Part shown: in pieces, positions 1-17,181 of the stretch
Layout of the letters: the number at the start of each line of letters is the position of its first letter
How positions within the stretch are numbered: the first letter of the stretch is position 1
Source of the DNA: a phage
Assembly (NCBI GenBank): GCA_012813795.1
Contig: GCA_012813795.1_4087.1
Direction: 5' to 3' (one strand)
DNA length: 64,000 nt
Translations under genes and position numbers: made by a program
The notes under the pieces: model-generated
Databases searched by the model: none
What the model saw: only the letters and a program-made list of their open reading frames with translations
What the model was told of the DNA's origin: nothing

Positions 1-310
1 GTATACAATTCCTAAGAGAACTCGTTGTGTAAGTACTTAAATCATTTTCTGTAATGAAATGAACATTCCAGTTGACTTGTACTGGATAATCTCGTTTAAA
101 AAACAAAACTACTATAGGTCTTTCAGTACTCAATGCATTAATAAATTCGATTACACTATCATAGATTTCAGTACGGATATTATTGGTTTTTATTGTACTT
201 ATGTAATTCTGTTTAATTCCGTGCTCTTCATTGATTTGATACTCAAAAAACTTTTTAAACAATTCTTTGGTTAAATCAGATGAATTTTTAATATTCGTTG
301 CGTTACTCAT
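1..310 (-). CDS. hypothetical protein, partial (runs off window start); N-terminus MSNATNIKNSSDLTKELFKK
   Basis: Minus-strand ATG at 310-308 followed by more than 100 sense codons to position 1 with no stop; absent from ORF track because no stop is inside the window; hydrophilic K/E-rich composition. Confidence 0.4.
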   Translation of the reverse strand, partial: MSNATNIKNSSDLTKELFKKFFEYQINEEHGIKQNYISTIKTNNIRTEIYDSVIEFINALSTERPIVVLFFKRDYPVQVNWNVHFITENDLSTYTTSSLRNCI

Positions 311-400
311 TCACTTCGTTCTCTCGTAACTCAAGAATTCGTTTCGTTATCTACGATAACTCACTCATTCATATTAATTAATATTGTATTGTACTTTTAA

Positions 401-950
401 AGATTGACGGGATTTGTTGAGGACATTTTCATCCCCCCGCAGGGGAATGATATTAAAAAAGAACCAATGAAGGTTCTTGATTTTGACGCTGATGGCATCG
501 GAATTTATCGAATTGCGAATTTCTCCATATTTTGGACGGTTCAAGGGTGTCCAATTTTTGGAGAACGAAAGCGGGTTGCTCTGTTTCTCTCTATCGCAGT
601 CATATGCAACGGTCGCAGGTATTTTCATCCCCTGCACTAAAGTACTGGAACTATTCGATCAATTCAGTACTCGTTTTACTCAATTTTTGGGTGCAACTTT
701 CCCGTAGAAAAATTGACCGCTTGTTTTAAGTAAAACTCCCTTAGCAAATCTGGTAAGGTGCGATCCTTATACATCTATCGAGGAACTCTCTGTATGCTTA
801 TCGGAGTTCTTTATTGAGCCGTGTCGCCGTGTGATCCGTGTCTTATTTCGCGTTTGTATGAATGCACTTGGATGGTACTAACGGGTTTCTTTTGCTCATC
901 GCCTCAGTGGGAAGGCTCATCTATCCTTTACATTTTCAAGAGAAGTAGGT
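401..950. repeat. Direct-repeat element copy A: long non-coding region with invariant cores at 567-597 and 736-771 and a GC hairpin at 433-445
   Basis: About 720 bp without a convincing ORF; shares blocks with 63490-63965 including identical 31-nt and 36-nt cores at the same spacing (139 vs 141 nt) and a stem whose loop differs between copies. Confidence 0.55.
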
Positions 951-1030
951 TCTTCTTGTCCGTTGTTAAAACGTCCACTGACATTTTCCATTACAATATA
1001 ATTATAGCACAATATAAAGTATTGTCCCAA

Positions 1031-1444
1031 TTACATATAAACTTTTTTCAATTCTTTGCTGCTTCGTTCAAATACTGTTTCAATGAACTCAATATCCTGA
1101 AGAAGCTGTAGAGTACTGGCATCTGTCTCATTGCGTGACACATTTCTGTACTTTTGTTCAGGGTGATTGAATACCACCTTGACTACACTATTTAGGTCTA
1201 CAAAATTTGACGTTTTTTTCGTATAGGAAGCCTGAAGCTTAATATACTTCCCATTATCTTGTAGATTAGTTTTATGAATTAGTTCTTCAATACCTGTAAG
1301 ATGTAAATAACTATCTTCTTCTTTGACGAATGTAATAGTCAACAGTACTGTCTTTTCGTCTCCCATGTCAGAGATATTTTTCACAGCACTAACAATTTCC
1401 AAGTTTGAAAAATCTAAATCTTTAAGCATTACACATATTTCCAC
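1031..1444 (-). CDS. hypothetical protein
   Basis: 137-aa minus-strand ORF, hydrophilic composition, packed with neighbours. Confidence 0.5.
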   Translation of the reverse strand: MEICVMLKDLDFSNLEIVSAVKNISDMGDEKTVLLTITFVKEEDSYLHLTGIEELIHKTNLQDNGKYIKLQASYTKKTSNFVDLNSVVKVVFNHPEQKYRNVSRNETDASTLQLLQDIEFIETVFERSSKELKKVYM

Positions 1445-1785
1445 AAAGTTCTATAAGTGATAATTTCTTCTCTGGTAACAGAAACTTCATTGCACTTAAC
1501 ACCATCCGTTTCATACTCGAATGGTCGTTGTGGTCGATATTCTGTTAAACCTCGTTCATACGTACAATGATAATACTTGTTCTCGTTTATGTCAAGAAAA
1601 ACAAGATCAAATTCTTCAGTAAATCGTCTATGCCCTTTACTTTCATTGCAAATGATTTTGTACTGCACATCTGGACCAAAGGTTTCAGTACTGTCATCCC
1701 ATGCACCATAGTCAGTATACAAATCATCTTCATCTAACTCTGCAAGATGCCACATTAACTGTGGTAAAAAGATTTTTGATTTCAT
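1429..1785 (-). CDS. hypothetical protein
   Basis: 118-aa ORF; GGAG 8 nt upstream of ATG; 16-bp overlap with downstream gene. Confidence 0.5.
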   Translation of the reverse strand: MKSKIFLPQLMWHLAELDEDDLYTDYGAWDDSTETFGPDVQYKIICNESKGHRRFTEEFDLVFLDINENKYYHCTYERGLTEYRPQRPFEYETDGVKCNEVSVTREEIITYRTLWKYV

Positions 1786-1797
1786 TTATTTTCTCCA

Positions 1798-1826
1798 TTA
1801 AAAAAGGACTTGATTTCTCAAGTCCC
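1798..1826 (-). terminator. Intrinsic terminator candidate after the HNH gene
   Basis: 8-bp stem ggacttga/tcaagtcc (1806-1825) with 4-nt loop, followed on the minus strand by a U6 run (plus-strand aaaaaa 1800-1805). Confidence 0.55.
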
Positions 1827-1838
1827 TATTATAACATA

Positions 1839-2450
1839 TTACTCATGTTTATCCAACAGCTTTTGTGCCTTTTTTAATGCTTTCATGTGTCGCCCGTACT
1901 CACGAACATGCCACAGATGATCGTTATCCCATAGCTCTTGACGCAATTTACGTTCTTCGATCATTTCTGGTGTAGGACGTTTACTTTCCTTCTCAATCTT
2001 ATTGAAATAACGATTCATATGTTCTTCAAGTAGATTTAGGTTTTTGACTTTCTCAAGGAATTCATCAACCGTTTCAGTTTTATTTGAACGCATTTGGTTG
2101 CATCTTGAGCACATTGTATTAAAGTTGGACTCCAAATCAGCACCACCTTTAGATGCAAGATGATTATGATCTACAGTCATCATAACTTCATAAAGACCAC
2201 ATACTGCATACACATTTAAATGCGGTTTACCATATACCGGATCACTACAGTTAGAACGTTCGATTCGAACTTCTGTAGCCTCGATGCCACAAGCAATGCA
2301 CTTACAATTCTTAACGAATGTTAGTACTTTTTGTGGAAAGTATCTGAAAGTAATACCATTATAAGTATAACGTTTCATTTTGGTACTAGTATGATTGAGT
2401 TCATCTAGTAAACTCAATTTGGTTACATAATAAACATGATATTTAGACAT
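1839..2450 (-). CDS. HNH-family endonuclease, possibly a free-standing homing endonuclease
   Basis: Cys-rich core CIACG ... VDHNHLASKGGADLESNFNTMCSRCN matches the HNH His/Asn metal-finger pattern; own terminator downstream. Confidence 0.55.
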   Translation of the reverse strand: MSKYHVYYVTKLSLLDELNHTSTKMKRYTYNGITFRYFPQKVLTFVKNCKCIACGIEATEVRIERSNCSDPVYGKPHLNVYAVCGLYEVMMTVDHNHLASKGGADLESNFNTMCSRCNQMRSNKTETVDEFLEKVKNLNLLEEHMNRYFNKIEKESKRPTPEMIEERKLRQELWDNDHLWHVREYGRHMKALKKAQKLLDKHE

Positions 2451-2451
2451 A

Positions 2452-2766
2452 CTATTCCTTAACTTTTATGTTAACACGAATATTTTGGTCTTGGAGTTTG
2501 CGAATTGTATCAATTAGTGCATCATATCTCAGTGCACATTCATTGTATATGGAATCCCAACGCGTCAGAACGTTAAGAATTTCATCACCAGCATATCCTC
2601 TATTACCATGTGAGTCAACAACAATTTTTTTAGGAATTGGTGTATCTTCTTCGCATCGTTCTAATAAGATTTCCTGGGTGATTATTGGTGACGCTTGAAC
2701 TGGAACCTTATTAGAACACCCAGTGATAAACATAAAAGTAATCAAGAATGTTAATATGTATTTCAT
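2452..2766 (-). CDS. o-spanin (outer-membrane lipoprotein subunit)
   Basis: Signal peptide with lipobox FITGC then a short mature protein; start overlaps the stop of the upstream i-spanin-like gene by 4 nt, as in the T4 pseT.3/pseT.2 pair. Confidence 0.6.
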   Translation of the reverse strand: MKYILTFLITFMFITGCSNKVPVQASPIITQEILLERCEEDTPIPKKIVVDSHGNRGYAGDEILNVLTRWDSIYNECALRYDALIDTIRKLQDQNIRVNIKVKE

Positions 2767-3137
2767 TTAAATTTCTCTCTAGCTGCAAGTGAATTTTGTT
2801 TTAGATCATTCAAAAGTTTTACCCCTTCTTCATCTAAACATACATTTCTATAAACTTCACGCTCAATAATAACTGGTACTTTAGTTTCTATTACCTTTGC
2901 ATTATTTTGCATTATATGTTTAGTTTCTACATAGTTTTTGGTATTTTGGCTTTCAATTTTACTTAAAGCCGCATCTACTTTCTTCTCTATTTTTAATTCA
3001 ATACTTTCTTTATACCCAGTATAAAAAGTATTAGCCTTCCAGCCACCAAAAGTACATGATGCCATCAGGAGAACAAACGCAATTGGTTTCCAGAACGGTA
3101 TCAGTACTTTTGAAACAATAATATCTAGTACACTCAT
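2763..3137 (-). CDS. i-spanin (inner-membrane subunit)
   Basis: N-terminal transmembrane helix (IAFVLLMASCTFGGW) followed by charged coiled-coil-like region; immediately upstream of lipoprotein gene. Confidence 0.55.
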   Translation of the reverse strand: MSVLDIIVSKVLIPFWKPIAFVLLMASCTFGGWKANTFYTGYKESIELKIEKKVDAALSKIESQNTKNYVETKHIMQNNAKVIETKVPVIIEREVYRNVCLDEEGVKLLNDLKQNSLAAREKFK

Positions 3138-3182
3138 AATAATATCTCCTATAGATGATGATATTATTTAGAGTGCTGAAAA

Positions 3183-3608
3183 TTAGCGTTTATCGATCAT
3201 TGTTTGTACATGTTCTACGAGATGTACGATTCTGGAATCACCTGATTCATACTTATCTTCGATCTCAACCTTAAATTCATCTTCAAGTTCCATGATCATT
3301 TCTACCCAGTCCAGTGAATCAAATTTGAATTTTTCTTCAATTTCTAAGGAGGTTAAATGTAAATTCATCAGTACATCTGCCTCTGATACATCACCATAAC
3401 GTCCAGAAATGAATTTTGCAATTGCTTTCTCAACGTCAGTTGGTCCACGTGTACGGTATTCTGGTTCAAGGAACCATTCACCCTTATTGATAGCTTCTAA
3501 TTCTAGTTTAATTTCATGCATTACTTTATAACGATCAGTACTTTTATGGATGCGGCTAACTTCGCGATTCAGTACACGTAGTGCATCAATAATTGTTGAA
3601 TTCAGCAT
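3183..3608 (-). CDS. Acyl-carrier-protein-like protein with N-terminal extension
   Basis: C-terminal half carries the ACP phosphopantetheine-attachment signature FDSLDWVEMIMELEDEFKVEIED (DSL serine followed by acidic helix). Confidence 0.5.
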   Translation of the reverse strand: MLNSTIIDALRVLNREVSRIHKSTDRYKVMHEIKLELEAINKGEWFLEPEYRTRGPTDVEKAIAKFISGRYGDVSEADVLMNLHLTSLEIEEKFKFDSLDWVEMIMELEDEFKVEIEDKYESGDSRIVHLVEHVQTMIDKR

Positions 3609-3617
3609 ATAATCCTC

Positions 3618-4859
3618 TTATTTTTTACCATACCACTGCATTTCTCGAATATCGATTAGAACTTTTGCAGCTAGTTGAATGTTTGGTTTCTTTGGTAGAA
3701 CTGACTTAGGATACACCACATTGCGGATATAGTCAACCTTTTCATTGAAATAATCCATGACTTCTTCATATTTCCATTTGCCGTTGCGGATATCCATTAG
3801 CATATCAGCATCAGGACGTTTAACAAGGATAATACCGCTTTGTAATGCTTCTTCGGCACTATTTAGCAGCCTGATCGTATGCATAGCATGTTTTAAATCG
3901 AAGCCGTGCTGTGATTCCATAAGAGCACGTTTAGCATTACGATTCTCTTTCCATTTGTGATAACTTTTACGGTTCTCACTGTTCTCACTGTATTCTTTTT
4001 CATTGAATTTGACAATGAGTTCAGGTCGCACTTTCAATTCTTCAGTACTGCGTTCTTTGTTGAAATAACGTAAAGAACCATCAGCGTTAATTGTACTTTC
4101 ATTAGGATTGATAATAACACCAAAGATATTTTCACCGTAATGAATTAATTCGTACCCATTGTTATAATCCAATAAGTTGAAATCACGGTCTAGTACTTTA
4201 TCAGTACTGTAATTATGTACTAAACGTACAAAATGATACTGTTTCAACGGATGAGTTGAAACTAACTGCAATGAAGTATCACGCATGTATTTTTCAAAAT
4301 CAATTTTCTTAGCATTAAATGGATGTAGTTTAGAAGTATCTAAACGTTCTACCAAATAGTGTGGGAAATTTTCATACATCCATGCTAAAGTTTCATCTAC
4401 TGGAAAATCTTCTAAGATTTCATTTAGACGTTTTTCAGCAATACGCTCTTTATCCATCCACCCGTGGTGATTAGACATACGCTTAACCTGATTATATGCA
4501 TAACCGGTATAAGAGAATGCAATCTTAGAACTAAGTAATTGTTGATTGAATGTACGTAGATAATCATAGATTTCAGTACTTTCTACGATGTGTTCAGGAT
4601 CGACCCATAGTGATTCAAGAATATTTGGGTTAGCCTCTGTATATAGTCTTAAGTACTGGTTTAGTTCATAGAATTTAGTATCTTCTTCTCTTGAATCAGA
4701 AACTTCCTTTACATTATAAAAAGGCGTAAGGATGAATTCTTTGTTAGCAAGAAAAATACCACGATAATCCGTATCACTTTCAGGTGTACTGGTTCCATAC
4801 GCTTGTGAACCTGCTAAGTGCTTCACAATTGTTTGTTCAAGAAATTTGTTATTATTCAT
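3618..4859 (-). CDS. Pol-beta-superfamily nucleotidyltransferase (RlaP/PF10127-like)
   Basis: N-terminal HLAGSQAYGTSTPESDTDYRGIF fits the GS-x(9-13)-D-x-D minimal nucleotidyltransferase motif; 413 aa. Confidence 0.5.
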   Translation of the reverse strand: MNNNKFLEQTIVKHLAGSQAYGTSTPESDTDYRGIFLANKEFILTPFYNVKEVSDSREEDTKFYELNQYLRLYTEANPNILESLWVDPEHIVESTEIYDYLRTFNQQLLSSKIAFSYTGYAYNQVKRMSNHHGWMDKERIAEKRLNEILEDFPVDETLAWMYENFPHYLVERLDTSKLHPFNAKKIDFEKYMRDTSLQLVSTHPLKQYHFVRLVHNYSTDKVLDRDFNLLDYNNGYELIHYGENIFGVIINPNESTINADGSLRYFNKERSTEELKVRPELIVKFNEKEYSENSENRKSYHKWKENRNAKRALMESQHGFDLKHAMHTIRLLNSAEEALQSGIILVKRPDADMLMDIRNGKWKYEEVMDYFNEKVDYIRNVVYPKSVLPKKPNIQLAAKVLIDIREMQWYGKK

Positions 4860-5257
4860 AGATGTAATGTTAGCTCCTTAAGAAACCCATTATAGTACTT
4901 CATGAAATCTTTATGAAGAACTTTGTATTCTGATAAACTAAAACCTAGATTGATTATAGTATCTTCTTGAAAGAACTTTTCTTCTTCGGATAAATCCAGA
5001 GAAATAGATTGTTTGCCACCATTTAATATTTTAGTAAAGTGTAAACCATCATTATTGATTTCAACGTACATGAAGTTATTTTCACGGTCACGAGGGCAAA
5101 CAATATTAATGGAACTTTCACCAGTATCATCGTATTCGAATGATATTACATCATACTCCCCGATTCCATAAAATTGTTTATCACTCTTGTAACCACTATA
5201 TACTTTTTTATACGAATCCATCTGTCTTATGGTGCTATACACATCATCAAGATCCAT
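4856..5257 (-). CDS. hypothetical protein
   Basis: 133-aa ORF, 4-nt overlap with upstream gene. Confidence 0.45.
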   Translation of the reverse strand: MDLDDVYSTIRQMDSYKKVYSGYKSDKQFYGIGEYDVISFEYDDTGESSINIVCPRDRENNFMYVEINNDGLHFTKILNGGKQSISLDLSEEEKFFQEDTIINLGFSLSEYKVLHKDFMKYYNGFLKELTLHL

Positions 5258-5260
5258 ATA

Positions 5261-5764
5261 TTAACTCCTGTAATATTGTAAGTATTCGTTCTTTGCATCA
5301 TCCAATTCTTTTTGTTCCTGAATTTTCTTGTCGATATCTTTCACGTTAGTAATACTGTTATATAGTGCGTGAAGTACAAGAAAATCAGATACAGAAGTTG
5401 AAAAATCCTTCCACCCACCCGACATTTTAATACGCACACGTATATCACGTCTGTCCATCCAGAACATGAACCCTCGATTCCCACGTAAATCATTAATCAT
5501 ATACACTTTAAAACAAGAATCTCGTGTGCTGCTTTCTCGTCTTTCAAAATCTACATGAATACTGAACAAGTTTTTTGAACAGTACTTACAAAATGCATAG
5601 ATAACAGGATCACATTTTGAAAGAAGATATTTGTTTTGAATAATTTCTCTGCGATCTTTGTCTGATTTAATATTAGGTACTAATAAAGTACTTTTGTTTA
5701 AAATCAACGCAACTAAGTACTGAAGAATATCATTATCTTTTACTTTATGTTTACCGAAGATCAT
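5261..5764 (-). CDS. hypothetical protein, member 3 of tandem paralog triplet
   Basis: Shares S/T-D-x-D-R-R/K ... I ... K ... LS motif and C-terminal charged helix with 5764-6264 and 6274-6834. Confidence 0.5.
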   Translation of the reverse strand: MIFGKHKVKDNDILQYLVALILNKSTLLVPNIKSDKDRREIIQNKYLLSKCDPVIYAFCKYCSKNLFSIHVDFERRESSTRDSCFKVYMINDLRGNRGFMFWMDRRDIRVRIKMSGGWKDFSTSVSDFLVLHALYNSITNVKDIDKKIQEQKELDDAKNEYLQYYRS

Positions 5765-6264
5765 TAGTATAATCCTTTTAGTTTATTAAATTCATTAAGT
5801 TTATGCTGCTCGTATTCTAACTTCTTGTACTTTGTTTCAAGCTCACGAAGTGCAACGAGTAAATGAAACAAAAACATTTGTTCATGTTTAGGTAGAATAT
5901 TCGCATCTCCGTTAATATAAACAAATGTATGTTTTTCATCATAATCTTTAGATGAATATGTTACTGCATTAAAATCAACCTTAGTTTCGGTATCAAACAA
6001 TTTTACACGGTTGATATGATTACCATATATGAATACTGGTTCATATAACCAACGTTCACCGTATGGTTCTTTAACTAGGTCAGTGATTAGTTTCATTAGA
6101 GAATGAGAACTTAACATTTCTTTAATTTTAAGTATAGTTCTACGATCTTCATCAGTACTGATAATTTCTTTTAAAGAATAGCTTTTCATCAGTACTGGAA
6201 GAATTAATGTACACCACTCTACATTTTCTCTTTTGTGATCATTATTTTTCTTTTTGAAAAACAT
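5764..6264 (-). CDS. hypothetical protein, member 2 of tandem paralog triplet
   Basis: KEIISTDEDRRTILKIKEMLSSH aligns with KDFVKTDNDRKSLIELKYKLSKH in the upstream paralog. Confidence 0.5.
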   Translation of the reverse strand: MFFKKKNNDHKRENVEWCTLILPVLMKSYSLKEIISTDEDRRTILKIKEMLSSHSLMKLITDLVKEPYGERWLYEPVFIYGNHINRVKLFDTETKVDFNAVTYSSKDYDEKHTFVYINGDANILPKHEQMFLFHLLVALRELETKYKKLEYEQHKLNEFNKLKGLY

Positions 6265-6273
6265 AGTAACCTC

Positions 6274-6834
6274 TTAATATAAATCAGTTATTCTCTTTTG
6301 GATTTTGAATTTACGCTGTTCTTCTTCAATTTGTGATAACTTTTCTTTAATATCTTCAGCACCAATAATCACATGGAACAGGATCATTAACTCATCATCA
6401 TCAAGCATATCATAATGAACACCGAAGTTTGAAGAAACAACACATGACAAATCTCTTGATTGAATGATAGTTTCTTCGGTTCTGTGTTCAATCCCTGCTG
6501 GTGTATACTCAACCTTAAACATGATTGCATTTTTTAAATCGCGTAGTATGAATTCTTCATCACCACCCCACAGTTTTTTTTGAACCATAGACCAACGATC
6601 ACTGAATGGATTTTGGGTGTATTCTGCCAGTAATCCATATAGTTTATGCTTACTTAACTTGTACTTAAGTTCGATAAGTGATTTACGATCATTATCGGTT
6701 TTCACAAAATCTTTAAGAGTTACACTTTTGCATAGCAAACGAACTACTAGTGTATTCTGAAAGTGCTGCTCTTTTTCTTTTAAACGTTGTAACTGTGCGG
6801 GTGACAGTGGTGGTCTAAAACGTGATTGTACCAT
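6274..6834 (-). CDS. hypothetical protein, member 1 of tandem paralog triplet
   Basis: AGGAGG 7 nt upstream of ATG; paralogous to the two downstream genes. Confidence 0.5.
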   Translation of the reverse strand: MVQSRFRPPLSPAQLQRLKEKEQHFQNTLVVRLLCKSVTLKDFVKTDNDRKSLIELKYKLSKHKLYGLLAEYTQNPFSDRWSMVQKKLWGGDEEFILRDLKNAIMFKVEYTPAGIEHRTEETIIQSRDLSCVVSSNFGVHYDMLDDDELMILFHVIIGAEDIKEKLSQIEEEQRKFKIQKRITDLY

Positions 6835-6865
6835 AGATTCCTCCTAGTTTTTTAGCATTATACAG

Positions 6866-6896
6866 ATAAAAGAAAAGCCTGTCAATAGACAGGCTT
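6866..6896 (-). terminator. Intrinsic terminator candidate after fibre-like gene
   Basis: Stem agcctgtc/gacaggct (6876-6895) with loop aata; U-rich tract follows on the minus strand. Confidence 0.5.
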
Positions 6897-6902
6897 AATT
6901 TT

Positions 6903-9671
6903 TTAACTCCAACGAGTACCAGATTGTGATGGTAACCCAGAACTAGCTGGGATAGCAGAACCACGATTGTAGGTACTTGGGCGGTATAGCAAGAATCTGG
7001 ACACTTTTTCAGACTCGATTGATGCAATACCATTAGCATCAGTTACTATCTTACCAATGTAGGTTGATGTCATAGTTTCTGATAATTGATATAGTGATAT
7101 CTGATACGAAGCTGTAGATGTACCTCTATCCATAACCGCATATATGTAGAATGTTGAATTATCTGGTGTAGTACTTATGGTAGATAAGTCTATCATAGTC
7201 GGTGGTATCTTTGCAAACTTTCCACCCAAGAAAACTGGTACTTCTTGTGAAAAGTACACGTTGAACCCTTGTGCCACATCCTGTGAAGCAACAACTAAGT
7301 ACTGTGATATCGTTTCATTACCAGATATTAGTTTATCCATATCTGCTTCAGTAGTACCACATACAGCAAAAACTGATTTAGTTTGATAATCGTTTTTGTT
7401 CATTTGGTAATATCCAAACCCAATCCCTGGAATTGTACCTATATCAAATTGTGCGTTTGAAATATAAGTTGTTTCCATATATCGTTGACTTGAAATAATA
7501 CCATTTTTCACTTTAGCAATCATGTTAGGATAACGAGTCCATCCTGGGGTATCAATGCCATATAAAATGTTCACACCTAAGTAGTTAAAACCACTAAACT
7601 TAGCAACCGTCATACCAGCCCAACGTTTGATCATTTCATTTGGTGAAATTTGGAATGTATTCGTGATTGATGTATATCTTGCTGTATCAACACTAATACC
7701 ACGTAAAATTATAGTACCACTTGTACCCAGTGCACTACATGATATTTCGGAAAAAATAATATAACACACGTTGGTAGTACCGTTTAGTGCAGAAGTGACT
7801 GCAATAGATTTAGAATATGTAGTATCAGGTACATAATAAAAAACAGTTTTATGTTCAGTTATTCCAGTCAATCCAGCTTTAGCAACGGCATTATAACCTA
7901 TACCTGATAATGTAGTTCCTGAAATTTCATATCTATCACTGTTAAAGTCCATTGTAACAGGGTCGAATTTTCCATAAGCTGGTTTATCGATACCTTCTAT
8001 TAAAGAAGATCCATAAGTGCTGACATTTCCATTGGCATCAACCAATGTTACCATACCTGCATATTTGTAATCAGTACTTAAATAGTGTCTATTACCTGAT
8101 GGTGCAAAACCATTCATTGTGGTATTTTGTTCCAAGTTTTTATAACTATAAGTTGGATTCTCACCTATTTCAGTAAAAACTGTACTATCATAACCATAAG
8201 AAATTCCATCAGCAGTACCAGAACATGCAACAAGTATCTTACGTTTATCAACGAAACGAACACCTATTAAGTTTTCACCTACAGGTGAACCATAAACGGG
8301 CATTACTTCTACGCGTTTTAAATTACTACCAGTACGTGTTTTAGCAACCCAACTATCATAAGGTGTACCAGAAACTTTGTATGTTTGTACTGCATAGGTC
8401 GGCATGGATGACCATCTTGCTTTGGTAGTGAAAACAAAACCATCAGAAGTTTGACAGATTGAACCATAGTTACCAAGTGCACCATCATAAAACCCTGTAA
8501 AGTTTTCCATATTGATTGAAAACGGGTTTCTCACTGTTATACTGCCAGTTGATGCATTAGCTGATACTCTGATTGGACCACGTTCAGAACCGTCAAGTGT
8601 CATTGTTTTAGTACTGATATCATATGTAAAGCTAATGCCAAGTGAATATACACTAGATGTTTTTGTTTCAGTAAAGACACGAAACCCTGGATATATCGCT
8701 ACTCTTATTTTTGTACCATCAGGGCTAAGAACTGCTTGGGTATTAAACGTGTAATGTTGCCAGTCATCGATTTTGGAAACCCCATTATCATATGCTATTA
8801 GTGCATCACCACCTGAACCCAATACTGAATAGCTATCATAAACGCGAATATTATTTGAAGCTGAATATGTTACATCTCGTATAGTTCTTCCTGAATAACC
8901 ACTAATTTGTGTTACTGTCGAAACTGAACCAGTATTAAATGCAGTTAAAGGTACTGTGTATATGATAAATGCACAACCGCGAACACTATTAAGAACACTT
9001 GAATCCCTACACCATATATAAACTGAATCATTTACGATGTGTGCATAGATTGGTTTATTTGTTATTGCTGTTTTTGGAATTCTACAGTGTTTATGAGCAG
9101 ATTCATTTAATGTTTCATTTGTTAATGTAAGGTAGTATGATGCTCTATCAGTTGATTCCCAAAATAGTAATTCATATGCATTTGACCCATAAAATTCATA
9201 AATGTAATCAGTGCTTGGTAGCACAGAAGGTCTATACATCGTGTTGGTTGTAATTATATTATCTTGAGTTAGTGTTTCTATATCTCTTATATTTTTAATA
9301 TAAGCATAATAGTAACCATACGAACTTCCATTTGTACCTGCACGTAAAATTACACCAGTACCATCATTTTCAATGATACAAGGTTGCATTATTTTTGCAA
9401 ATGAAAAGGAAGAAGCACCTTCAAATGTACCGTTAATACTCATCGGTAGGTAATCTTGATCACCTACCCTTGAAACTGGAAGCATATCAAACATCTGATC
9501 TACTTCCGCTTTGTCATAATATTGGTAAGTGATTTTACCAGCAGAATCAGCAGGGAATCCATTAAAGGAACGTAATGCATACTTTCCATTAATTTTCAAA
9601 TTCCCTAGTATTTCTGCGTTTCCTATAATTCGTCTCGAAGCCATATATATTCCTTTACCATTCTGTCCCAC
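6903..9671 (-). CDS. Fibre-like beta-rich structural protein (tail fibre / receptor-binding candidate), paralog 2
   Basis: 922 aa, S/T/G/N/Y-rich; N-terminal and C-terminal regions shared with 10256-12955, central region divergent. Confidence 0.5.
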   Translation of the reverse strand: MGQNGKGIYMASRRIIGNAEILGNLKINGKYALRSFNGFPADSAGKITYQYYDKAEVDQMFDMLPVSRVGDQDYLPMSINGTFEGASSFSFAKIMQPCIIENDGTGVILRAGTNGSSYGYYYAYIKNIRDIETLTQDNIITTNTMYRPSVLPSTDYIYEFYGSNAYELLFWESTDRASYYLTLTNETLNESAHKHCRIPKTAITNKPIYAHIVNDSVYIWCRDSSVLNSVRGCAFIIYTVPLTAFNTGSVSTVTQISGYSGRTIRDVTYSASNNIRVYDSYSVLGSGGDALIAYDNGVSKIDDWQHYTFNTQAVLSPDGTKIRVAIYPGFRVFTETKTSSVYSLGISFTYDISTKTMTLDGSERGPIRVSANASTGSITVRNPFSINMENFTGFYDGALGNYGSICQTSDGFVFTTKARWSSMPTYAVQTYKVSGTPYDSWVAKTRTGSNLKRVEVMPVYGSPVGENLIGVRFVDKRKILVACSGTADGISYGYDSTVFTEIGENPTYSYKNLEQNTTMNGFAPSGNRHYLSTDYKYAGMVTLVDANGNVSTYGSSLIEGIDKPAYGKFDPVTMDFNSDRYEISGTTLSGIGYNAVAKAGLTGITEHKTVFYYVPDTTYSKSIAVTSALNGTTNVCYIIFSEISCSALGTSGTIILRGISVDTARYTSITNTFQISPNEMIKRWAGMTVAKFSGFNYLGVNILYGIDTPGWTRYPNMIAKVKNGIISSQRYMETTYISNAQFDIGTIPGIGFGYYQMNKNDYQTKSVFAVCGTTEADMDKLISGNETISQYLVVASQDVAQGFNVYFSQEVPVFLGGKFAKIPPTMIDLSTISTTPDNSTFYIYAVMDRGTSTASYQISLYQLSETMTSTYIGKIVTDANGIASIESEKVSRFLLYRPSTYNRGSAIPASSGLPSQSGTRWS

Positions 9672-10245
9672 TATTCACATCTGGTGTACCAGAACTGATA
9701 GGGATAGCTGAACCAATTTTTGTAGCACTTACTCTGAAGTCGTCAAATCTTGACACTTTATTTATACTGACCCCTGTAATGCCATCTGGGAAAACTGTCA
9801 TTTGTCCTATGTACATATTAACATTACTTTCAGGGCGTTGAGTTTTAGAAATGATGTAGTCAGCTACCCCAACATCTAATATAACATATACATAATGTGT
9901 TTCAATATTAGTTCCAGTAACGCCTGGGTCCGTTATTGTTTTAGCAGGGAGGGTATAAACCGCTCCCGCCATGAACAATGGTAATTCTTTACTGAAAGTT
10001 AATTTGAACCCAGCAGCAGTAATACCTAATGGTTCAGTACTGTAAAGTGAACCAAATTGTGATAACGGAAAGGAACTGGTAATGTAATTCACATCATCTG
10101 TACTCATGAGTGGTACATCAACATTCCCATTAGCATCAGCTTGATACACATTACCAGAACGATCAGTTATCGTGGTCCCAGTATTTTTTCCTTGTGATTT
10201 AACGGAAGCATACGCTTCCACATCAGATCTAAATTTATAAGCCAT
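9655..10245 (-). CDS. Short protein carrying the C-terminal domain of the fibre-like paralogs
   Basis: 196 aa; last ~120 aa (YVYVILDVG ... KVSRFDDF ... SSGTPDVNSGTEW) align to the C-termini of both large neighbours. Confidence 0.5.
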   Translation of the reverse strand: MAYKFRSDVEAYASVKSQGKNTGTTITDRSGNVYQADANGNVDVPLMSTDDVNYITSSFPLSQFGSLYSTEPLGITAAGFKLTFSKELPLFMAGAVYTLPAKTITDPGVTGTNIETHYVYVILDVGVADYIISKTQRPESNVNMYIGQMTVFPDGITGVSINKVSRFDDFRVSATKIGSAIPISSGTPDVNSGTEW

Positions 10246-10255
10246 ATTATCTCCA

Positions 10256-12955
10256 TTACCAATTCACATTACCAGAACTTGAAGGGAACCCAGAACTAAC
10301 TGGGAAGGAACTTCCGGCAGCGTCGAATGATGAACCAAACAGGTCTAAACGCGAACGTTTTTCTATATTAATTTCGGTTATTTGTAAATCATCAGTTTTC
10401 ACTGTACCAATCCAGTATATTGAATGAGTTTCAGCTAATTCAGTTGTTGATATGTGATAGTTTGCAATACCCTGTACTAATTTAATATACACATAAAATG
10501 TAGTATTGGCAGGATTTGCTTTCACAGTTGTTAAATCTATATTTGATATTGGTAATTTATAGTGTTTACCTGATAGCAGTACTGGTGTCTCTTCGGTGAA
10601 GTATATAATAAAACCTTGAGCAACATCTTGGGAAACAAGACATATAAATGGATTTCCTTTATCAGTCCATGCATTATAATCCGCTAATGTAGTACCATAT
10701 GTTCTAAAAATTGTTTTGTTTGTATTATCTATACTTTGAAGAATACCAAACCCAATATTAGGTAAAGCGAATGGTTGACCATCTAATGCATAGATAGGAC
10801 GTGCACCAGCTATATGGAAATTATTAAATTGGGCTGTCGCTTTATCCACTGTAGCACGGAAAAATGGAGAGTTTGTATTACCAACTGTATTAAAGAAACC
10901 TGGAATACCACCACCAATGAAGTAGAAAGAACCAGCATCATATATAGTAATACCAATACTTCCACTATCAAGATGATATGCGGTATCTGTTTTGTAATCC
11001 CCAGCTTGAACACTTTCATGTACTAAACGTTTGAACGACCATGTTGTAATATCACCAGTTCTTGTATTGACATTCAATTCAACAACTCGTACATATAAAC
11101 CACGGGCTGTAGTAGATGCTGCAAGAACACCAAAAACAGGAATATCAGTTTGTTGTGGAACAAATACAGATAATGTTTTTATTGATTCTGGTGATATATT
11201 CCATGAACTAGCAACTTTAGCAAATTCGGAATTTCGAATAGCATTCATTATATCTTGAGACATACTGATTGTACCATTATTCAGTACATTACCTTTATAA
11301 TCAAAACTAATAGGAGTTGATGTTCTATTATCTGCCACCAAAACACCACCATTAGTAGTGACCGTTGAACCAGAAATTGAACTTATAAAAATTCTAGATT
11401 CTGGTGTAGTTATAAACGCTCGGTCTGGTGTTGGTTCATAACCAGGAACAGTACCATAGTCTAGAGACTTAAATGTAAAGTTCGGTGTAGCTTTATGTAC
11501 AGCATAGGATGGATAAAAACGACCATCACCAGAACGTCTTGAATATTGTTTAGTACTGTTATTTGGTAATAACTCTACACCTACTTGGTATGAACCAACT
11601 GCTGAACCAAATCTTGGTGATACTACACCATTAATAAAATTAGTTGCTGATACACTTCTAACATTCATTAAATTAAACAATGACTGTGGTGGATATTTCG
11701 CATATGATAAGTTCAATGCTTCTGCGAGGTTTGGTGAGAATGAACAAAATGCATCACCAGTTGATGGTACATAGCAATAATTACTAAAAATATTACGACC
11801 ACCCGCGTGAAGATAAAATGGATCTTTTGTTATGCATTGACCCGTTACATTCATACTTGAACCCGTGTCATTAACAGCAACTGGTGTAGTCGTTAACATA
11901 TTATCTAATTTACATTGTTTTGTCACAACATCAAAAGTCATACTAAAACCATGTTGTGGGCGTGTGTCATATCGTCCATTTGTCATCCACATATCACCAC
12001 ATAATCTAAATCTGAATTCGGATGTACCAGATTTCTGTGCAACATATAAATCTGGATCTGTCATATAAACACCAAACCCAATAATACCACTTGGAATTAA
12101 AACGTATGGATTATCATTGGTATTTGTTGAATTTATTTTCATAGTTGGAACAATATTGTCATCATATACCATTGCATTATAAAAAGTTCTTGTGGCCCAA
12201 CCAGTAATTCTAGTAACACTATAAGTACCACCACCTGGGTTATTACTTGGACTAAAAGTAACTTTAGTAACGGATATTTTAAGAGTATTGCTTGGTGTAT
12301 CTAAACTGAAAAAGTATAATGAACCATCTTCAGCACGAATAACAAATTGTATTGCACCAAAAGGTTGTACGGCTGTATGGTCTGATAGAATAATACCAGT
12401 GTGCATTGTATCATTCATAGTACCATTATTGACTGAAACAAAAACTCTATCAATATATGTACCATCAGAATTTTCAGTTCTCACCAAACCACAAGTAATA
12501 TCATCACTGCTTGGATACAAATAAACTGCATACCCAGCACCAAAATAATTTGGTTTATATGCACGAGTAGTATTAACCATACGACTTGTATTTGTTGTAC
12601 CAACCGCCTGGGTCATATAACTATAATAAATCCCCTGTGTACTTCCATTAGTACCCGGACGTAACATTACTAAAGTGTTATCATCTTCCAAAAATAATTT
12701 TGTATTTCTGGAACTAGCATTTTCTGAAGAACCAACTGTTGTACCATTGACACCAGCAGGTAGATAGTTTTGTGTACCATAACGAGAAATGGGTAACATA
12801 CCAACCATTTCCAGCATATCATCTTGTGTATATGCATCTATTGTGAGATTGCCATTTTCATCAAATACGTTATCATTGATGCTCTGAACACTTCTCTTAC
12901 CTTTGACTGTTACATTATGTGTAACATCAATGCCACCATATATTTTCTTTGCCAT
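10256..12955 (-). CDS. Fibre-like beta-rich structural protein (tail fibre / receptor-binding candidate), paralog 1
   Basis: 899 aa; shares MLPISRYGTQNYLP ... LRPGTNGS N-terminal motifs and the conserved C-terminal domain with 6903-9671. Confidence 0.5.
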   Translation of the reverse strand: MAKKIYGGIDVTHNVTVKGKRSVQSINDNVFDENGNLTIDAYTQDDMLEMVGMLPISRYGTQNYLPAGVNGTTVGSSENASSRNTKLFLEDDNTLVMLRPGTNGSTQGIYYSYMTQAVGTTNTSRMVNTTRAYKPNYFGAGYAVYLYPSSDDITCGLVRTENSDGTYIDRVFVSVNNGTMNDTMHTGIILSDHTAVQPFGAIQFVIRAEDGSLYFFSLDTPSNTLKISVTKVTFSPSNNPGGGTYSVTRITGWATRTFYNAMVYDDNIVPTMKINSTNTNDNPYVLIPSGIIGFGVYMTDPDLYVAQKSGTSEFRFRLCGDMWMTNGRYDTRPQHGFSMTFDVVTKQCKLDNMLTTTPVAVNDTGSSMNVTGQCITKDPFYLHAGGRNIFSNYCYVPSTGDAFCSFSPNLAEALNLSYAKYPPQSLFNLMNVRSVSATNFINGVVSPRFGSAVGSYQVGVELLPNNSTKQYSRRSGDGRFYPSYAVHKATPNFTFKSLDYGTVPGYEPTPDRAFITTPESRIFISSISGSTVTTNGGVLVADNRTSTPISFDYKGNVLNNGTISMSQDIMNAIRNSEFAKVASSWNISPESIKTLSVFVPQQTDIPVFGVLAASTTARGLYVRVVELNVNTRTGDITTWSFKRLVHESVQAGDYKTDTAYHLDSGSIGITIYDAGSFYFIGGGIPGFFNTVGNTNSPFFRATVDKATAQFNNFHIAGARPIYALDGQPFALPNIGFGILQSIDNTNKTIFRTYGTTLADYNAWTDKGNPFICLVSQDVAQGFIIYFTEETPVLLSGKHYKLPISNIDLTTVKANPANTTFYVYIKLVQGIANYHISTTELAETHSIYWIGTVKTDDLQITEINIEKRSRLDLFGSSFDAAGSSFPVSSGFPSSSGNVNW

Positions 12956-12999
12956 ATATATCCCTTTTATCTAGATATCCATAGTGTATTTATAATAGT

Positions 13000-13025
13000 A
13001 TAAAAAAAGCACCCAAAGGGTGCTT
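13000..13025 (-). terminator. Intrinsic terminator candidate downstream of nrdG and small ORF
   Basis: Stem agcaccc/gggtgct (13008-13024) with loop aaa, followed on the minus strand by U7. Confidence 0.5.
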
Positions 13026-13032
13026 CTTCATA

Positions 13033-13191
13033 TTAACCGCCGTGTTTAGAAAATTCAACTGCTCTTAATTGTTTAAGTGCTTCTTTTCTGGTTGGGTGAC
13101 GACCGAGAACTTTCTTCCCTGTGTGGTCAGTAACAACCCACTCATTTCCACGTTTCTGTATCTTTTCCGAAATAATATCAAGATAACGCAT
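13033..13191 (-). CDS. Small ORF (52 aa) MRYLDIISEKIQKRGNEWVVTDHTGKKVLGRHPTRKEALKQLRAVEFSKHGG
   Basis: Below ORF-track size cutoff; ATG at 13191-13189 preceded by GGAG; start overlaps nrdG stop; ends just before terminator. Confidence 0.35.
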   Translation of the reverse strand: MRYLDIISEKIQKRGNEWVVTDHTGKKVLGRHPTRKEALKQLRAVEFSKHGG

Positions 13192-13657
13192 AATCTACTC
13201 CTTTACGAAGAATACGTTGATTATTAGAGCCTCTAAATGGTAATTCTAAATTCTTTTCTTCAAGAATAAATTTACCATCAACTAATACATCAATGTACTC
13301 TAGTATTGCGGAGGCATGATTATTTATTATTTCCTCTAAAGTATAACCACTCCAGCACCAAATATCTTTATTTGGATATTTTTCTTTTACTACTTTACAT
13401 AACTCAACAACAGTACTGATATTCTTTGGCATCAATGGATCACCACCAAGAAGTGACAACCCTTGTACATATGGCTTGTTAAGTTCATTCAGGATGATAT
13501 CAACTGTTTCAGTACTGAATTCTGAACCACTGCGATAATCCCATGCTTTTTCGTTGAAGCATTCTTCACATCCGTGGCTACACCCTGAAACAAAAAGGGA
13601 GCATCTAACTCCCTCTCCATTGACTAAATCATCCTTGATTATCGTCTGGTAATTCAT
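13178..13657 (-). CDS. nrdG: Anaerobic ribonucleotide reductase activating protein (radical SAM)
   Basis: N-terminal VNGEGVRCSLFVSGCSHGCEEC cysteine cluster typical of NrdG activases; directly downstream of nrdD. Confidence 0.85.
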   Translation of the reverse strand: MNYQTIIKDDLVNGEGVRCSLFVSGCSHGCEECFNEKAWDYRSGSEFSTETVDIILNELNKPYVQGLSLLGGDPLMPKNISTVVELCKVVKEKYPNKDIWCWSGYTLEEIINNHASAILEYIDVLVDGKFILEEKNLELPFRGSNNQRILRKGVDYALS

Positions 13658-13964
13658 CTAATATTGCACTCACTATTTCAACAAGAACATCTCCGTGACA
13701 TGATTTGGGCTTACAAAAGCACCCAAGACGCTTCCCAGCCAATTCAAGTAGTTCTTCGATAGTAACCTCACCATTATCAATTCTTTGGATAAGATACTCT
13801 CTGAACTTCTCAATCGACTCTTCTCGTGTCGGAACTATAAACTCTGCCTTTGTTTGTTTGTCATTAATGTGGGTAAATGGATTTCCCCATTTAGACCCAC
13901 GACCAATATACACATCATATGGTTCTTTATATTTGTTAACTACAATTGGTTTTAAGTCCATCAT
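13629..13964 (-). CDS. Conserved hypothetical protein with Cys/His cluster (DUF4326-like)
   Basis: [12 protein letters not shown] ... [15 protein letters not shown] motif pattern; 111 aa. Confidence 0.45.
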
Positions 13965-14323
13965 AGACCTTTAGTAAAAGTACGATTGATTACATCATCT
14001 TGTTGTTCTTTTGTTAGTGAATTGAAACGAACTGCATAACCACTAACACGAATTGTAAGTTGCGGATACTTTTCTGGATTATTTTGTGCATCAATGAGTT
14101 GTTCTTTAGATAGAACATTTACATTCAAGTGCTGACCACCTTCAATATTCGGTGCGTGTTGAATTTCCACATCACGCAGTACCTCACCATCAAAAGTACT
14201 CAAAAGTACTTCATCATCTTCGGAAATGGTCTTTGATACAATAATACGTGCAATATCATTTTCTATTAGCATGATAGTTCCACGGTGCTCACCAGACATG
14301 ACTTGTTTACCTTGAATTGACAT
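13961..14323 (-). CDS. grcA: Autonomous glycyl radical cofactor, GrcA/YfiD-like
   Basis: C-terminal [10 protein letters not shown] ... [21 protein letters not shown] ... RTFT is near-identical to the conserved GrcA glycyl-radical domain. Confidence 0.85.
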
Positions 14324-14332
14324 AATATCTCC

Positions 14333-16138: not shown

Positions 16139-16189
16139 TTCACATTCCTTGTATGTTATTCGTTTGGGTGAATTTATTTAACTTCAACA

Positions 16190-16240
16190 AAGAGCATTAT
16201 AGCCTCATATTGGCCTTTTTCTCTTGACCTAAATCAAGGA
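16190..16240 (-). promoter_or_regulatory. Putative FNR-dependent class II promoter of nrdD
   Basis: TTGAC-CTAA-ATCAA palindrome at 16224-16237 (9/10 match to FNR box TTGAT-N4-ATCAA) centred 41.5 bp upstream of predicted start site; perfect TATAAT on minus strand at 16201-16196. Confidence 0.45.
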
Positions 16241-16269
16241 AAAGTGCAATTGATTAAGTACTGTACAAA

Positions 16270-16294
16270 CACAAAAAGCACCACTTGGGTGCTT
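16270..16294 (-). terminator. Intrinsic terminator candidate upstream of nrdD promoter
   Basis: Stem agcacc/ggtgct (16277-16293) with 5-nt loop and U5 on the minus strand. Confidence 0.45.
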
Positions 16295-16371
16295 TATAGA
16301 ATAGACAAAATAACAACTGACCAGATTAGCATAACATATAAATTGCAATTACACAGCATCCAATGAATAGT

Positions 16372-16557
16372 TTAATTAGTCTCATCTGGACTCCATGTAA
16401 TAGTTACAGTAAATGTACCTTCCTGGAAGCCATATTCATCTTGTGGGATTTGTTCAGCTAATGGGTTAAATCTTGAATCAAAAGCTTCATGCACATCTCT
16501 TTGGATATCATATAGACTTTCACCATCATATTCTTTTTTGAAGATTTCATTCTGCAT
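16372..16557 (-). CDS. hypothetical protein
   Basis: 61-aa ORF, acidic. Confidence 0.4.
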   Translation of the reverse strand: MQNEIFKKEYDGESLYDIQRDVHEAFDSRFNPLAEQIPQDEYGFQEGTFTVTITWSPDETN

Positions 16558-16957: not shown

Positions 16958-16959
16958 AG

Positions 16960-17181
16960 TTATTCCTCGTTTTCATTTGGAATACAATATACAAATACTA
17001 AATGCTTAAAGTGATCAGTACTGGAATATAATGCCAATTCATGTAATGGGAAATTTGTATCTTTAAATTTACCATTTTCGTATATAGTTATTTGTAACGA
17101 ATGTTTTGGCTCAAAAATATAATAGTACATTATTGATTCACCAAAAAGTACAGTATGGTGCTGATATCGTTCAATTTTCAT
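16960..17181 (-). CDS. hypothetical protein
   Basis: Track ORF 16960-17229 trimmed to internal ATG at 17181 (MKIERYQHH), immediately after the stop of the deaminase gene. Confidence 0.4.
   Translation of the reverse strand: MKIERYQHHTVLFGESIMYYYIFEPKHSLQITIYENGKFKDTNFPLHELALYSSTDHFKHLVFVYCIPNENEE

What the first reader, a model, noticed from the sequence alone, without database searches (positions are those of the whole stretch)
5261..6834. Tandem triplet of paralogous ~170-aa proteins downstream of the fibre genes
Three consecutive genes share motifs ([S/T]-D-x-D-R-[RK] ... I ... K ... LS in the N-terminal half and a charged helix ending ...[LI]Y at the C-terminus) but are strongly diverged. 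They are separated from the fibre operon only by a terminator-like hairpin and begin with a strong AGGAGG ribosome-binding site. They could be fibre accessory or assembly proteins or an unrelated diversifying family.
Basis: seen in the sequence. Interest (0 to 1): 0.4.

Follow-up and report, generated by a model that had tools for sequence, protein, structure and literature searches.

The report
Early-gene paralogue triplet beside fibre genes
Three neighbouring genes of a giant E. coli phage are real, ancient copies of one small protein family of unknown function, but they have their own early-type promoter and vary independently of the fibre genes, so they are probably early host-takeover or counter-defence proteins and not fibre helpers.

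Summary
On the minus strand, genes A (6834-6274, 186 aa), B (6264-5764, 166 aa) and C (5764-5261, 167 aa) are full-length homologues: BLASTP A-B 2e-15, A-C 3e-6, and profile-profile probability 98%. The window is an Asteriusvirus jumbo phage, about 98% identical to Escherichia phage A4.

The fibre-accessory reading is not supported.
- The hairpin after the last fibre gene holds a perfect sigma-70 promoter (TTGACA-17-TATAAT), conserved across four genera. The fibre genes instead carry the only two T4-late-type TATAAATA motifs in 64 kb.
- Phage ph0011 has window-type fibres (89-94% aa identity) but a 33-38% identical triplet.
- The triplet runs on into a 133-aa gene and an RlaP RNA-repair nucleotidyltransferase.

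Best guess, inferred only: early cytoplasmic host-takeover or counter-defence proteins. This is a real but modestly interesting uncharacterised family.

The parts
6274..6834 (-). Paralogue A (186 aa). It is the first gene of the transcription unit and belongs to phrog_18641.
   Evidence: ORF. BLASTP to B gives 2e-15. PHROG hit 5e-33. The AlphaFold model has pLDDT 91.2 and pTM 0.82: an N-terminal helical domain (residues 12-74), a five-stranded sheet (81-141) and a 40-residue C-terminal helix (146-185).
5764..6264 (-). Paralogue B (166 aa), phrog_18641. A GAGG ribosome-binding site lies upstream. Its stop codon overlaps the start of C by one base (TAATG).
5261..5764 (-). Paralogue C (167 aa), phrog_7868. 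This is the C-type subfamily, with the motif SKCDPxxYxFxKYC. A variable stretch lies at residues 76-94.
   Evidence: dN/dS is 0.34-1.18 among close relatives, based on few substitutions.
6857..6885 (-). Consensus sigma-70 promoter, TTGACA-17 nt-TATAAT (12 of 12 positions). The -35 hexamer lies in the loop and 3' arm of the terminator hairpin.
   Evidence: There are four exact matches in 64 kb against 0.14 expected, all on the coding strand. The promoter is conserved in A4, 121Q, JNE01, Muenster, a metagenomic relative, CBB and a Salmonella-assembly phage contig.
6875..6896 (-). Intrinsic-terminator-like hairpin that ends the fibre transcript: AAGCCTGTC-TATT-GACAGGCTT followed by a T-run.
   Evidence: Fold energy is -15 kcal/mol. 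It is the only one of nine strong promoter sites in the window that sits in such a hairpin.
6840..6845 (-). AGGAGG ribosome-binding site, 5 nt upstream of the ATG of A.
   Evidence: Read directly from the sequence.
4856..5257 (-). 133-aa protein of unknown function (phrog_22376) in the same operon. It starts 3 nt after C ends and overlaps the nucleotidyltransferase gene by 4 nt.
   Evidence: It is not a remote member of the family (hhalign probability below 1%).
3618..4859 (-). RlaP-family (PF10127) nucleotidyltransferase of 413 aa, the conserved downstream partner of the family in the lineages examined (apparently missing or fragmented in one metagenomic contig, L014).
   Evidence: Pfam E=2e-17. 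Synteny; the exception is. Its biochemistry is described in PMC12776372.
3183..3608 (-). Acyl-carrier-protein-like protein of 141 aa, the next gene in the same orientation.
   Evidence: All scores are below the curated cut-offs.
6903..12955 (-). Upstream late module (context only): three fibre-like structural genes of 899, 196 and about 913-922 aa.
   Evidence: They match PHROGs 3573 and 26864. Homologues are annotated as structural proteins in the CBB record.
12987..12994 (-). TATAAATA (T4-late-promoter type), 31 nt upstream of the first fibre gene.
   Evidence: The same placement occurs in 121Q, ph0011 and two metagenomic relatives.
9759..9766 (-). Second TATAAATA, upstream of the third fibre gene.
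   Evidence: It is also present in ph0011.

Best explanation
A, B and C are three anciently duplicated members of a small protein family confined to RaK2-like jumbo phages.

What the data show:
- They are the promoter-proximal genes of a transcription unit that starts at a consensus sigma-70 promoter built into the terminator of the late fibre operon.
- With tight or overlapping gene junctions, the unit runs on through a 133-aa gene, an RlaP RNA-repair nucleotidyltransferase and an ACP-like gene.
- Sequence and model indicate soluble proteins with a basic four-helix N-terminal domain, a small beta-sheet and a long C-terminal helix. This fold matches no solved structure.

What is inferred:
- The host RNA polymerase transcribes them early in infection, and they are not virion parts.
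- They act as binding proteins that neutralise or redirect host factors (host takeover or counter-defence). The paralogues would cover different or variant targets, which would explain the fast divergence, the allele swapping by recombination and the copy number of 2-5.
- They may act in the same conflict as the neighbouring RNA-repair enzymes RlaP and, in relatives, Thg1.
For: - Promoter. A 12/12 sigma-70 promoter lies at 6885-6857. The window has four exact matches against 0.14 expected, all on the coding strand. The promoter is conserved in front of the first family gene in Asteriusvirus, Alcyoneusvirus, Mimasvirus and an Eneladusvirus-like contig.
- Late motif. TATAAATA occurs twice against 11.9 expected, both times in front of fibre genes.
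- Literature. This phage group has no RNA polymerase of its own but has phage-encoded sigma factors and a gp33 orthologue; CBB carries a T4 gp55-like sigma factor. CBB has RpoD-like early, divergent middle and ATAAATA late promoters (PMC7824862; PMC5259590).
- Operon packing. The junctions are read.
- Independence from the fibres. ph0011 shows 89-94% fibre identity against 33-38% triplet identity, with the nucleotide identity break at the 5' end of A.
- Divergence. These are the most diverged genes of the region (33-38% against 121Q, compared with 87% for RlaP).
- Mosaicism inside the triplet. Against one relative, dS is 1.35 for A and 0.07 for C.
- Purifying selection. dN/dS is 0.16-0.17 for A and B.
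- Copy number. There are 2-5 copies per genome, always between the last fibre-like gene and RlaP. In some lineages they are interleaved with Thg1, DUF4326 and an N4-cytosine methyltransferase.
- Small family. 42 representatives reached E<=0.001 among 1.84 billion proteins; one is a repeat artefact, and the 41 genuine ones are 115-209 aa.
- Protein properties. No signal peptide or membrane segment is visible on reading the sequences (no predictor was run), and the N-terminal domains have pI 8.7-9.9.
- Annotation. No member is labelled as structural in the CBB record, whereas the neighbouring 915-aa proteins are.
Against: - There is no experimental timing or proteomic data for these genes. 'Early' rests on promoter motifs alone.
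- Constant placement directly after the last fibre-like gene in every lineage is also what a fibre-linked role would predict.
- A and B show ordinary purifying selection and no positive selection.
- Fast divergence could simply reflect weak constraint.
Confidence: 0.45

Rival explanations
1. The proteins are fibre chaperones or assembly or accessory factors for the upstream 900-aa fibre-like proteins.
For: In every genome examined the family lies immediately downstream of the last fibre-like or tailspike gene. There are three paralogues next to three fibre-like genes in Asteriusvirus. Phage fibre chaperones are commonly encoded just downstream of their fibre (general knowledge).
Against: - The genes have a separate consensus sigma-70 promoter behind a terminator, while the fibres have late-type TATAAATA motifs.
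- ph0011 combines window-type fibres (89-94%) with a 33-38% identical triplet.
- Copy number does not follow fibre number. There are 2 copies after at least five tail-fibre genes in Muenster and 4-5 copies after three in CBB-like phages.
- The same family follows unrelated receptor-binding proteins in Alcyoneusvirus.
- No profile or fold match to gp38, gp57A, Tfa or intramolecular-chaperone families was found.
Confidence: 0.1
2. The proteins are accessory subunits or substrate adaptors of the co-transcribed RNA-repair enzymes (RlaP and, in relatives, Thg1), for example tRNA-binding specificity factors.
For: The genes are packed in one operon with RlaP. In Mimasvirus and related contigs they are interleaved with Thg1, with overlapping junctions. 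The N-terminal helical domain is basic. RlaP adds nucleotides to damaged tRNA 3' ends (PMC12776372). An RNA ligase and a polynucleotide kinase are encoded elsewhere in the corresponding A4 region.
Against: - RlaP is 85-87% conserved where the triplet is 33-38% conserved, which is an unlikely pattern for obligate partners.
- RlaP families outside these phages have no such partner, since the family has only 41 genuine representatives, all traced to this phage group.
- One contig keeps family members although RlaP appears missing or fragmented.
- No RNA-binding domain is recognisable.
Confidence: 0.15
3. The proteins are DNA-binding transcription regulators of the early-to-middle switch, functional analogues of T4 MotA or AsiA.
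Against: - A core regulator would not be expected to be the most diverged gene of the region or to vary from 2 to 5 copies.
Confidence: 0.1

Closest known systems
PHROG families phrog_18641 and phrog_7868 (function unknown). Examples are 121Q gp502-504, RaK2 ORF001-002, Muenster gp235-236 and CBB gp150, 153, 155 and 156.
   Same: Direct sequence membership and the same genomic position. The three-gene order A-B-C is conserved in Asteriusvirus.
   Different: The window and A4 allele is only 25-38% identical to the alleles of all other sequenced Asteriusviruses. No member has ever been characterised.
Phage tail-fibre chaperones encoded downstream of their fibre (T4 gp38 and gp57A, lambda or Mu Tfa, endosialidase-type intramolecular chaperones).
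   Same: Position directly after a fibre-like gene, and small size.
   Different: The genes have their own sigma-70 promoter, do not co-vary with the fibre, and have no sequence or fold similarity. The BFVD 'endosialidase chaperone' hit has E 0.06 and TM 0.15.
Variable early-gene clusters of T4-like phages that hold host-takeover and anti-defence genes, compared here by kind of gene and not by homology.
   Same: Consensus sigma-70 promoter, small soluble proteins, a narrow lineage range, rapid divergence, recombinational mosaicism, and neighbours with conflict-related functions such as RNA repair and, in relatives, a methyltransferase.
   Different: There is no homology to any characterised member. 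The assignment is by analogy only.
[not shown]
   Different: The scores are below any accepted fold-match level. The extra N-terminal four-helix domain is not matched, and sequence identity is 4-10%.

Membership tests
phrog_18641 / phrog_7868 (RaK2-like jumbo-phage family, function unknown) | Significant full-length match to the family profile | tested here: met
   A scores 5e-33 and B 1e-23 to phrog_18641. C scores 2e-26 to phrog_7868. Cross-hits range from 1e-5 to 1e-9. hhalign between the two subfamilies gives probability 98%.
phrog_18641 / phrog_7868 (RaK2-like jumbo-phage family, function unknown) | Conserved position between the last fibre-like gene and the RlaP nucleotidyltransferase | tested here: met
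   A family HMM scan of the window and 17 loci found 2-5 copies each, all in that interval.
Tail-fibre chaperone or assembly proteins | Sequence or fold relation to a known chaperone family (gp38, gp57A, Caudo_TAP/Tfa, Peptidase_S74) | tested here: not met
   [not shown]
Tail-fibre chaperone or assembly proteins | Co-variation with the cognate fibre across related phages | tested here: not met
   ph0011 has fibres 89-94% identical but a triplet only 33-38% identical.
Tail-fibre chaperone or assembly proteins | Co-expression with the fibre as a late gene | tested here: inconclusive
   Motifs argue against it: a terminator and a sigma-70 promoter precede the triplet, and TATAAATA precedes the fibres. 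There are no transcript data.
Known anti-phage-defence or anti-defence proteins | Profile match to a catalogued defence-system component, or fold match to a solved anti-defence protein | tested here: not met
   [not shown]
Helix-turn-helix transcription factors | Recognisable HTH domain by profile or fold | tested here: inconclusive
   [not shown]
Early genes of T4-type jumbo phages (a transcription class, not a protein family) | Consensus sigma-70 promoter directly upstream, conserved in relatives | tested here: met
Early genes of T4-type jumbo phages (a transcription class, not a protein family) | Transcript present early in infection | not testable with these tools
   No RNA-seq data for an Asteriusvirus or Alcyoneusvirus was found in the literature searches.

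The most novel reading that the evidence does not exclude
The family is a new fold class of early phage proteins that works in the same conflict as the co-transcribed RNA-repair enzymes RlaP and Thg1. Its members could be paralogous inhibitors of host tRNA- or RNA-targeting defence nucleases, or adaptors that direct repair to particular damaged tRNAs. Copy-number expansion (2-5) and allele swapping would then track the defence repertoire of the host.
Probability: 0.15. Interest if true: 0.6.

Novelty: new member of a known kind. Interest (0 to 1): 0.3.

Why it matters
If the proteins are early counter-defence or takeover factors, they would add a jumbo-phage-specific family with an unmatched fold to the anti-defence catalogue. 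They would also give a functional handle on the RlaP/Thg1 RNA-repair cluster of RaK2-like phages, several of which are being developed for therapy.

In practice, the result warns against annotating these genes as fibre accessory proteins. It also gives a clear late/early boundary, a terminator with an embedded promoter, that is useful for engineering fibre modules in these phages. The immediate value is modest, because the genes are already deposited as hypothetical proteins in dozens of genomes and no function has been demonstrated.

Tried and rejected
- Pfam, NCBIfam and PADLOC scans of A, B, C and their neighbours found nothing for the triplet. A Pfam scan of all 46 family members gave only scattered single-member noise.
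- A profile search of all PDB sequences gave only chance hits at E about 0.3.
- The word-indexed protein search found only 2-7 relatives. The exhaustive profile search was needed and gave 42 representatives. One of these, P0010, is a 1157-aa tandem-repeat artefact.
- I tested whether neighbouring small ORFs are remote family members. These were the 133-aa gene, the ACP-like gene, and the 130-190-aa genes downstream of RlaP in RaK2, CBB and a metagenomic relative. All gave hhalign probabilities below 1%.
- I looked for DNA-level repeats between the paralogues and for Rfam RNAs and tRNAs in the region, and found none.
- I looked for published transcriptomics or functional data on these genes in Asteriusvirus or RaK2-type phages, and found none.
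- A recombination breakpoint inside gene A was suggested by the blastn boundary at 6650. I rejected it because the ph0011 protein is 121Q-like from its first residues.
- Positive selection is not established. Only C shows raised dN/dS, and that rests on about a dozen substitutions.

Full report
**Origin and anatomy**

The window is an Asteriusvirus jumbo phage. Bases 5000-7000 match Escherichia phage A4 (ON286972, 355 kb) at 98.3% and no other record at megablast level. Bases 1-20000 match A4 at 97.5%.

Almost all genes here lie on the minus strand. The three genes of the finding are A (6834..6274, 186 aa), B (6264..5764, 166 aa) and C (5764..5261, 167 aa). Upstream in the direction of transcription are three fibre-like genes of 899, 196 and about 913-922 aa. 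Downstream are a 133-aa gene, a 413-aa RlaP-family nucleotidyltransferase (PF10127, E=2e-17), an ACP-like gene, a spanin pair and an HNH endonuclease.

**Check of the observation**

The paralogy is real and covers the full length.
- BLASTP gives A-B 2e-15 over 161 residues, A-C 3e-6 and B-C 0.012.
- A and B fall in phrog_18641 and C in phrog_7868, with reciprocal cross-hits.
- A profile of A/B-type sequences aligns to a profile of C-type sequences with hhalign probability 98%, E=2e-13 over 155 columns.

The most conserved positions across 46 members are in the N-terminal 'KS..L...D.DRR.II..KY.LSK' stretch, plus a Tyr at or near the C-terminus.

The hairpin (6896-6875) and the AGGAGG site (6845-6840) are as described. 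No nucleotide-level repeat remains between the copies. Positional orthologues of A, B and C are separately recognisable in 121Q and JNE01, so the duplications predate the genus. RaK2 and Muenster have two copies, one A-like and one C-type.

The hairpin after the fibre stop codon contains the -35 hexamer of a perfect sigma-70 promoter, TTGACA-17-TATAAT (6885-6857).
- Exact matches to TTGACA-N16-18-TATAAT occur four times in the window against 0.14 expected, all on the coding strand.
- Of nine strong promoter-like sites, only this one sits in a stable hairpin (-15 kcal/mol).
- The terminator-with-promoter arrangement is kept in A4, 121Q, JNE01, a metagenomic relative, CBB and a Salmonella-assembly phage contig. 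CBB and the Salmonella contig each carry two promoter-like sites in this spacer. In Muenster the terminator and promoter are separate.

The T4-late-promoter octamer TATAAATA shows the opposite pattern. It occurs only twice in 64 kb, against 11.9 expected, and both copies lie on the coding strand in front of fibre genes (12994-12987 and 9766-9759). The same placement, about 40 nt before the first fibre gene, is seen in 121Q, ph0011 and two metagenomic relatives.

The literature fits this picture. Jumbo phages of this group lack their own RNA polymerase but encode sigma factors and a gp33 orthologue (PMC7824862). Phage CBB, which carries a T4 gp55-like sigma factor, was reported to have RpoD-like early promoters, a divergent middle type and an ATAAATA late type (PMC5259590).

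The fibres therefore look late and the triplet looks early. That is an inference from motifs, not a measurement.

**Operon structure**

Gene junctions are tight.
- B starts 9 nt after A ends.
- The stop of B overlaps the start of C by one base.
- The 133-aa gene starts 3 nt after C.
- The 133-aa gene overlaps the RlaP gene by 4 nt.
- The ACP-like gene follows after 9 nt.

The triplet is thus the promoter-proximal part of a unit that includes an RNA-repair enzyme.

**Test of the fibre link**

I compared each gene of the region with relatives.

| Gene | ph0011 (aa identity) | 121Q (aa identity) |
|---|---|---|
| Fibre-like genes | 89-94% | 40-53% |
| A, B, C | 33-38% | 33-38% |
| 133-aa gene | 60% | 60% |
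| RlaP | 85% | 87% |

- At the DNA level, 91% identity to ph0011 runs through the fibres and the intergenic element and stops just inside A. The ph0011 A protein is 121Q-like from its first residues.
- In a metagenomic relative (L015), A and B are 70% and 77% identical, while C is 94% and the 133-aa protein 98%. Synonymous divergence is 1.35 for A and 0.07 for C, so recombination also breaks the triplet internally.
- In Alcyoneusvirus the family follows an unrelated set of tail-fibre genes.
- Copy number does not follow fibre number.

**Family size and range**

An exhaustive profile search of 1.84 billion representative proteins found 42 hits at E<=0.001. One is a repeat artefact. The 41 genuine ones are 115-209 aa, the shortest being a truncated fragment.

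tblastn places members in Asteriusvirus, Alcyoneusvirus (RaK2, K64-1, Muenster), Mimasvirus (CBB; GAP32 is closely related), and a group of related jumbo phages whose genus I did not check: Serratia phage BF, Yersinia phages fHe-Yen9-03 and -04, and several Erwinia phages.

A family HMM finds exactly three copies in the window and 2-5 in each related locus, always between the last fibre-like gene and RlaP. In CBB-like genomes they are interleaved with Thg1, DUF4326 and an N4-cytosine methyltransferase. Neighbouring small ORFs are not remote members.

**Selection**

A and B have dN/dS of 0.16-0.17, so they are constrained, functional proteins. C has 0.34-1.18 among very close relatives, based on few changes, which cluster with small indels at residues 76-94. 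The triplet is the most diverged part of the region. Positive selection is not demonstrated.

**Structure**

With 46 sequences, AlphaFold gives pLDDT 91.2 and pTM 0.82 for A. The model has helices at 12-34, 40-43, 47-61 and 66-74, five strands between 81 and 141, and one 40-residue helix at 146-185.
- BFVD returns only uncharacterised proteins, led by two from related Yersinia jumbo phages.
- No Pfam, NCBIfam, PADLOC or PDB-sequence match exists.
- No signal peptide or membrane segment is visible on reading the sequences; no predictor was run. The proteins are mildly basic (family median pI 8.9), and the N-terminal domains have pI 8.7-9.9.

**Interpretation**

The following points are shown by the data:
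- The triplet is real and anciently duplicated.
- It has its own conserved sigma-70-type promoter.
- It is packed in an operon with RlaP.
- It is independent of fibre alleles.
- Its phylogenetic range is narrow and its copy number variable.
- Its predicted fold matches no solved structure.

The following points are inferred: early expression, a non-virion location, and a role as binding proteins in host takeover or counter-defence, possibly connected to the RNA-repair genes beside them.

I rate the rivals as follows.

| Explanation | Confidence | Main reason |
|---|---|---|
| Early host-takeover or counter-defence proteins | 0.45 | Promoter, operon context, divergence and copy-number variation |
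| RlaP/Thg1 adaptor | 0.15 | Fits the operon but not the 33-38% against 85-87% conservation contrast |
| Fibre chaperone | 0.10 | Supported only by gene position |
| Transcription regulator | 0.10 | Non-significant helix-turn-helix-like fold hits, and contradicted by the variability |

**Novelty and score**

These genes are already deposited as hypothetical proteins in dozens of genomes and are catalogued in PHROGs without a function. The new points are the formal link between the two PHROGs, the early-promoter and late-terminator boundary, the discordance with the fibres, and the lack of a known fold. This is a new, uncharacterised family of a familiar kind of gene (variable early phage genes). 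Interest is 0.3.

Noticed in passing
window 6857-6896 (- strand); also L002 ~11940-11985, L012 7940-7985, L017 6530-6650, L006 8325-8440: A composite element in which the -35 hexamer of a consensus sigma-70 promoter lies in the loop and 3' arm of the intrinsic terminator of the preceding late operon. The arrangement is conserved across several genera of RaK2-like jumbo phages. In CBB and the Salmonella-assembly contig the spacer holds a hairpin-embedded promoter plus a second promoter-like site.
   Followed up: partly
window, whole 64 kb; matches at 9759-9766 and 12987-12994 (- strand): TATAAATA is strongly depleted (2 matches against 11.9 +/- 3.6 expected). Both copies lie in front of fibre-like genes, as expected if the motif is a functional late promoter that is avoided elsewhere.
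   Followed up: partly
window ~3608-3618, compared with L001 7120-10534 (A4_503 and A4_504) and L002 15418-18730 (121Q gp508 and gp509): The window lacks a fibre gene pair of about 3.5 kb ('putative tail fiber' plus 'tail protein I') that A4, 121Q, JNE01 and Turkey5 carry between the RlaP gene and the ACP-like gene. ph0011 and two metagenomic relatives also lack it. It is an insertion/deletion polymorphism of a receptor-binding module.
   Followed up: partly
window 9655-10245 (- strand) compared with 6903-9671 and 10256-12955: The 196-aa protein between the two long fibre-like genes is homologous to the C-terminal 120 or so residues of the 900-aa proteins (phrog_3573 positions 878-998). All three end in a similar Ser/Gly-rich tail. 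It looks like a free-standing copy of the fibre C-terminal domain.
   Followed up: no
L016 11976-14255: In a close metagenomic relative (98% identical in A), the RlaP gene is called as 759 aa instead of 413 aa, and the window protein aligns over only 78% of its length. This suggests an insertion, such as an intein or a mobile element, or a fusion in that genome.
   Followed up: no
L014 8774-9542 and 11396-12773: In one distant metagenomic relative, Thg1 is split into two ORFs and no intact RlaP gene is called, while three family members remain. The cause could be gene decay or an assembly error.
   Followed up: no
window 5482-5538 (codons 76-94 of paralogue C): Among relatives at least 92% identical, the amino-acid changes and one-codon indels in C cluster in a stretch of about 20 residues just after the N-terminal helical domain. 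dN/dS is 0.34-1.18, based on few sites.
   Followed up: partly
window 3183-3608 (- strand): A 141-aa protein whose C-terminal half resembles acyl carrier protein. It scores below all curated cut-offs, and the region around the usual phosphopantetheine-attachment site aligns. It has an N-terminal extension of about 60 residues and is conserved next to the spanin genes in all RaK2-like phages examined.
   Followed up: no
L018 16207-19358 (A4_427 and A4_432); from the A4-window correspondence this should fall in the far half of the window, but the window coordinates were not mapped: An RNA ligase and a 3'-phosphatase/5'-polynucleotide kinase, which together make a T4-type tRNA-repair pair, are annotated in A4 roughly 40 kb from the RlaP gene. 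The phage therefore carries a dispersed RNA-repair toolkit.
   Followed up: no
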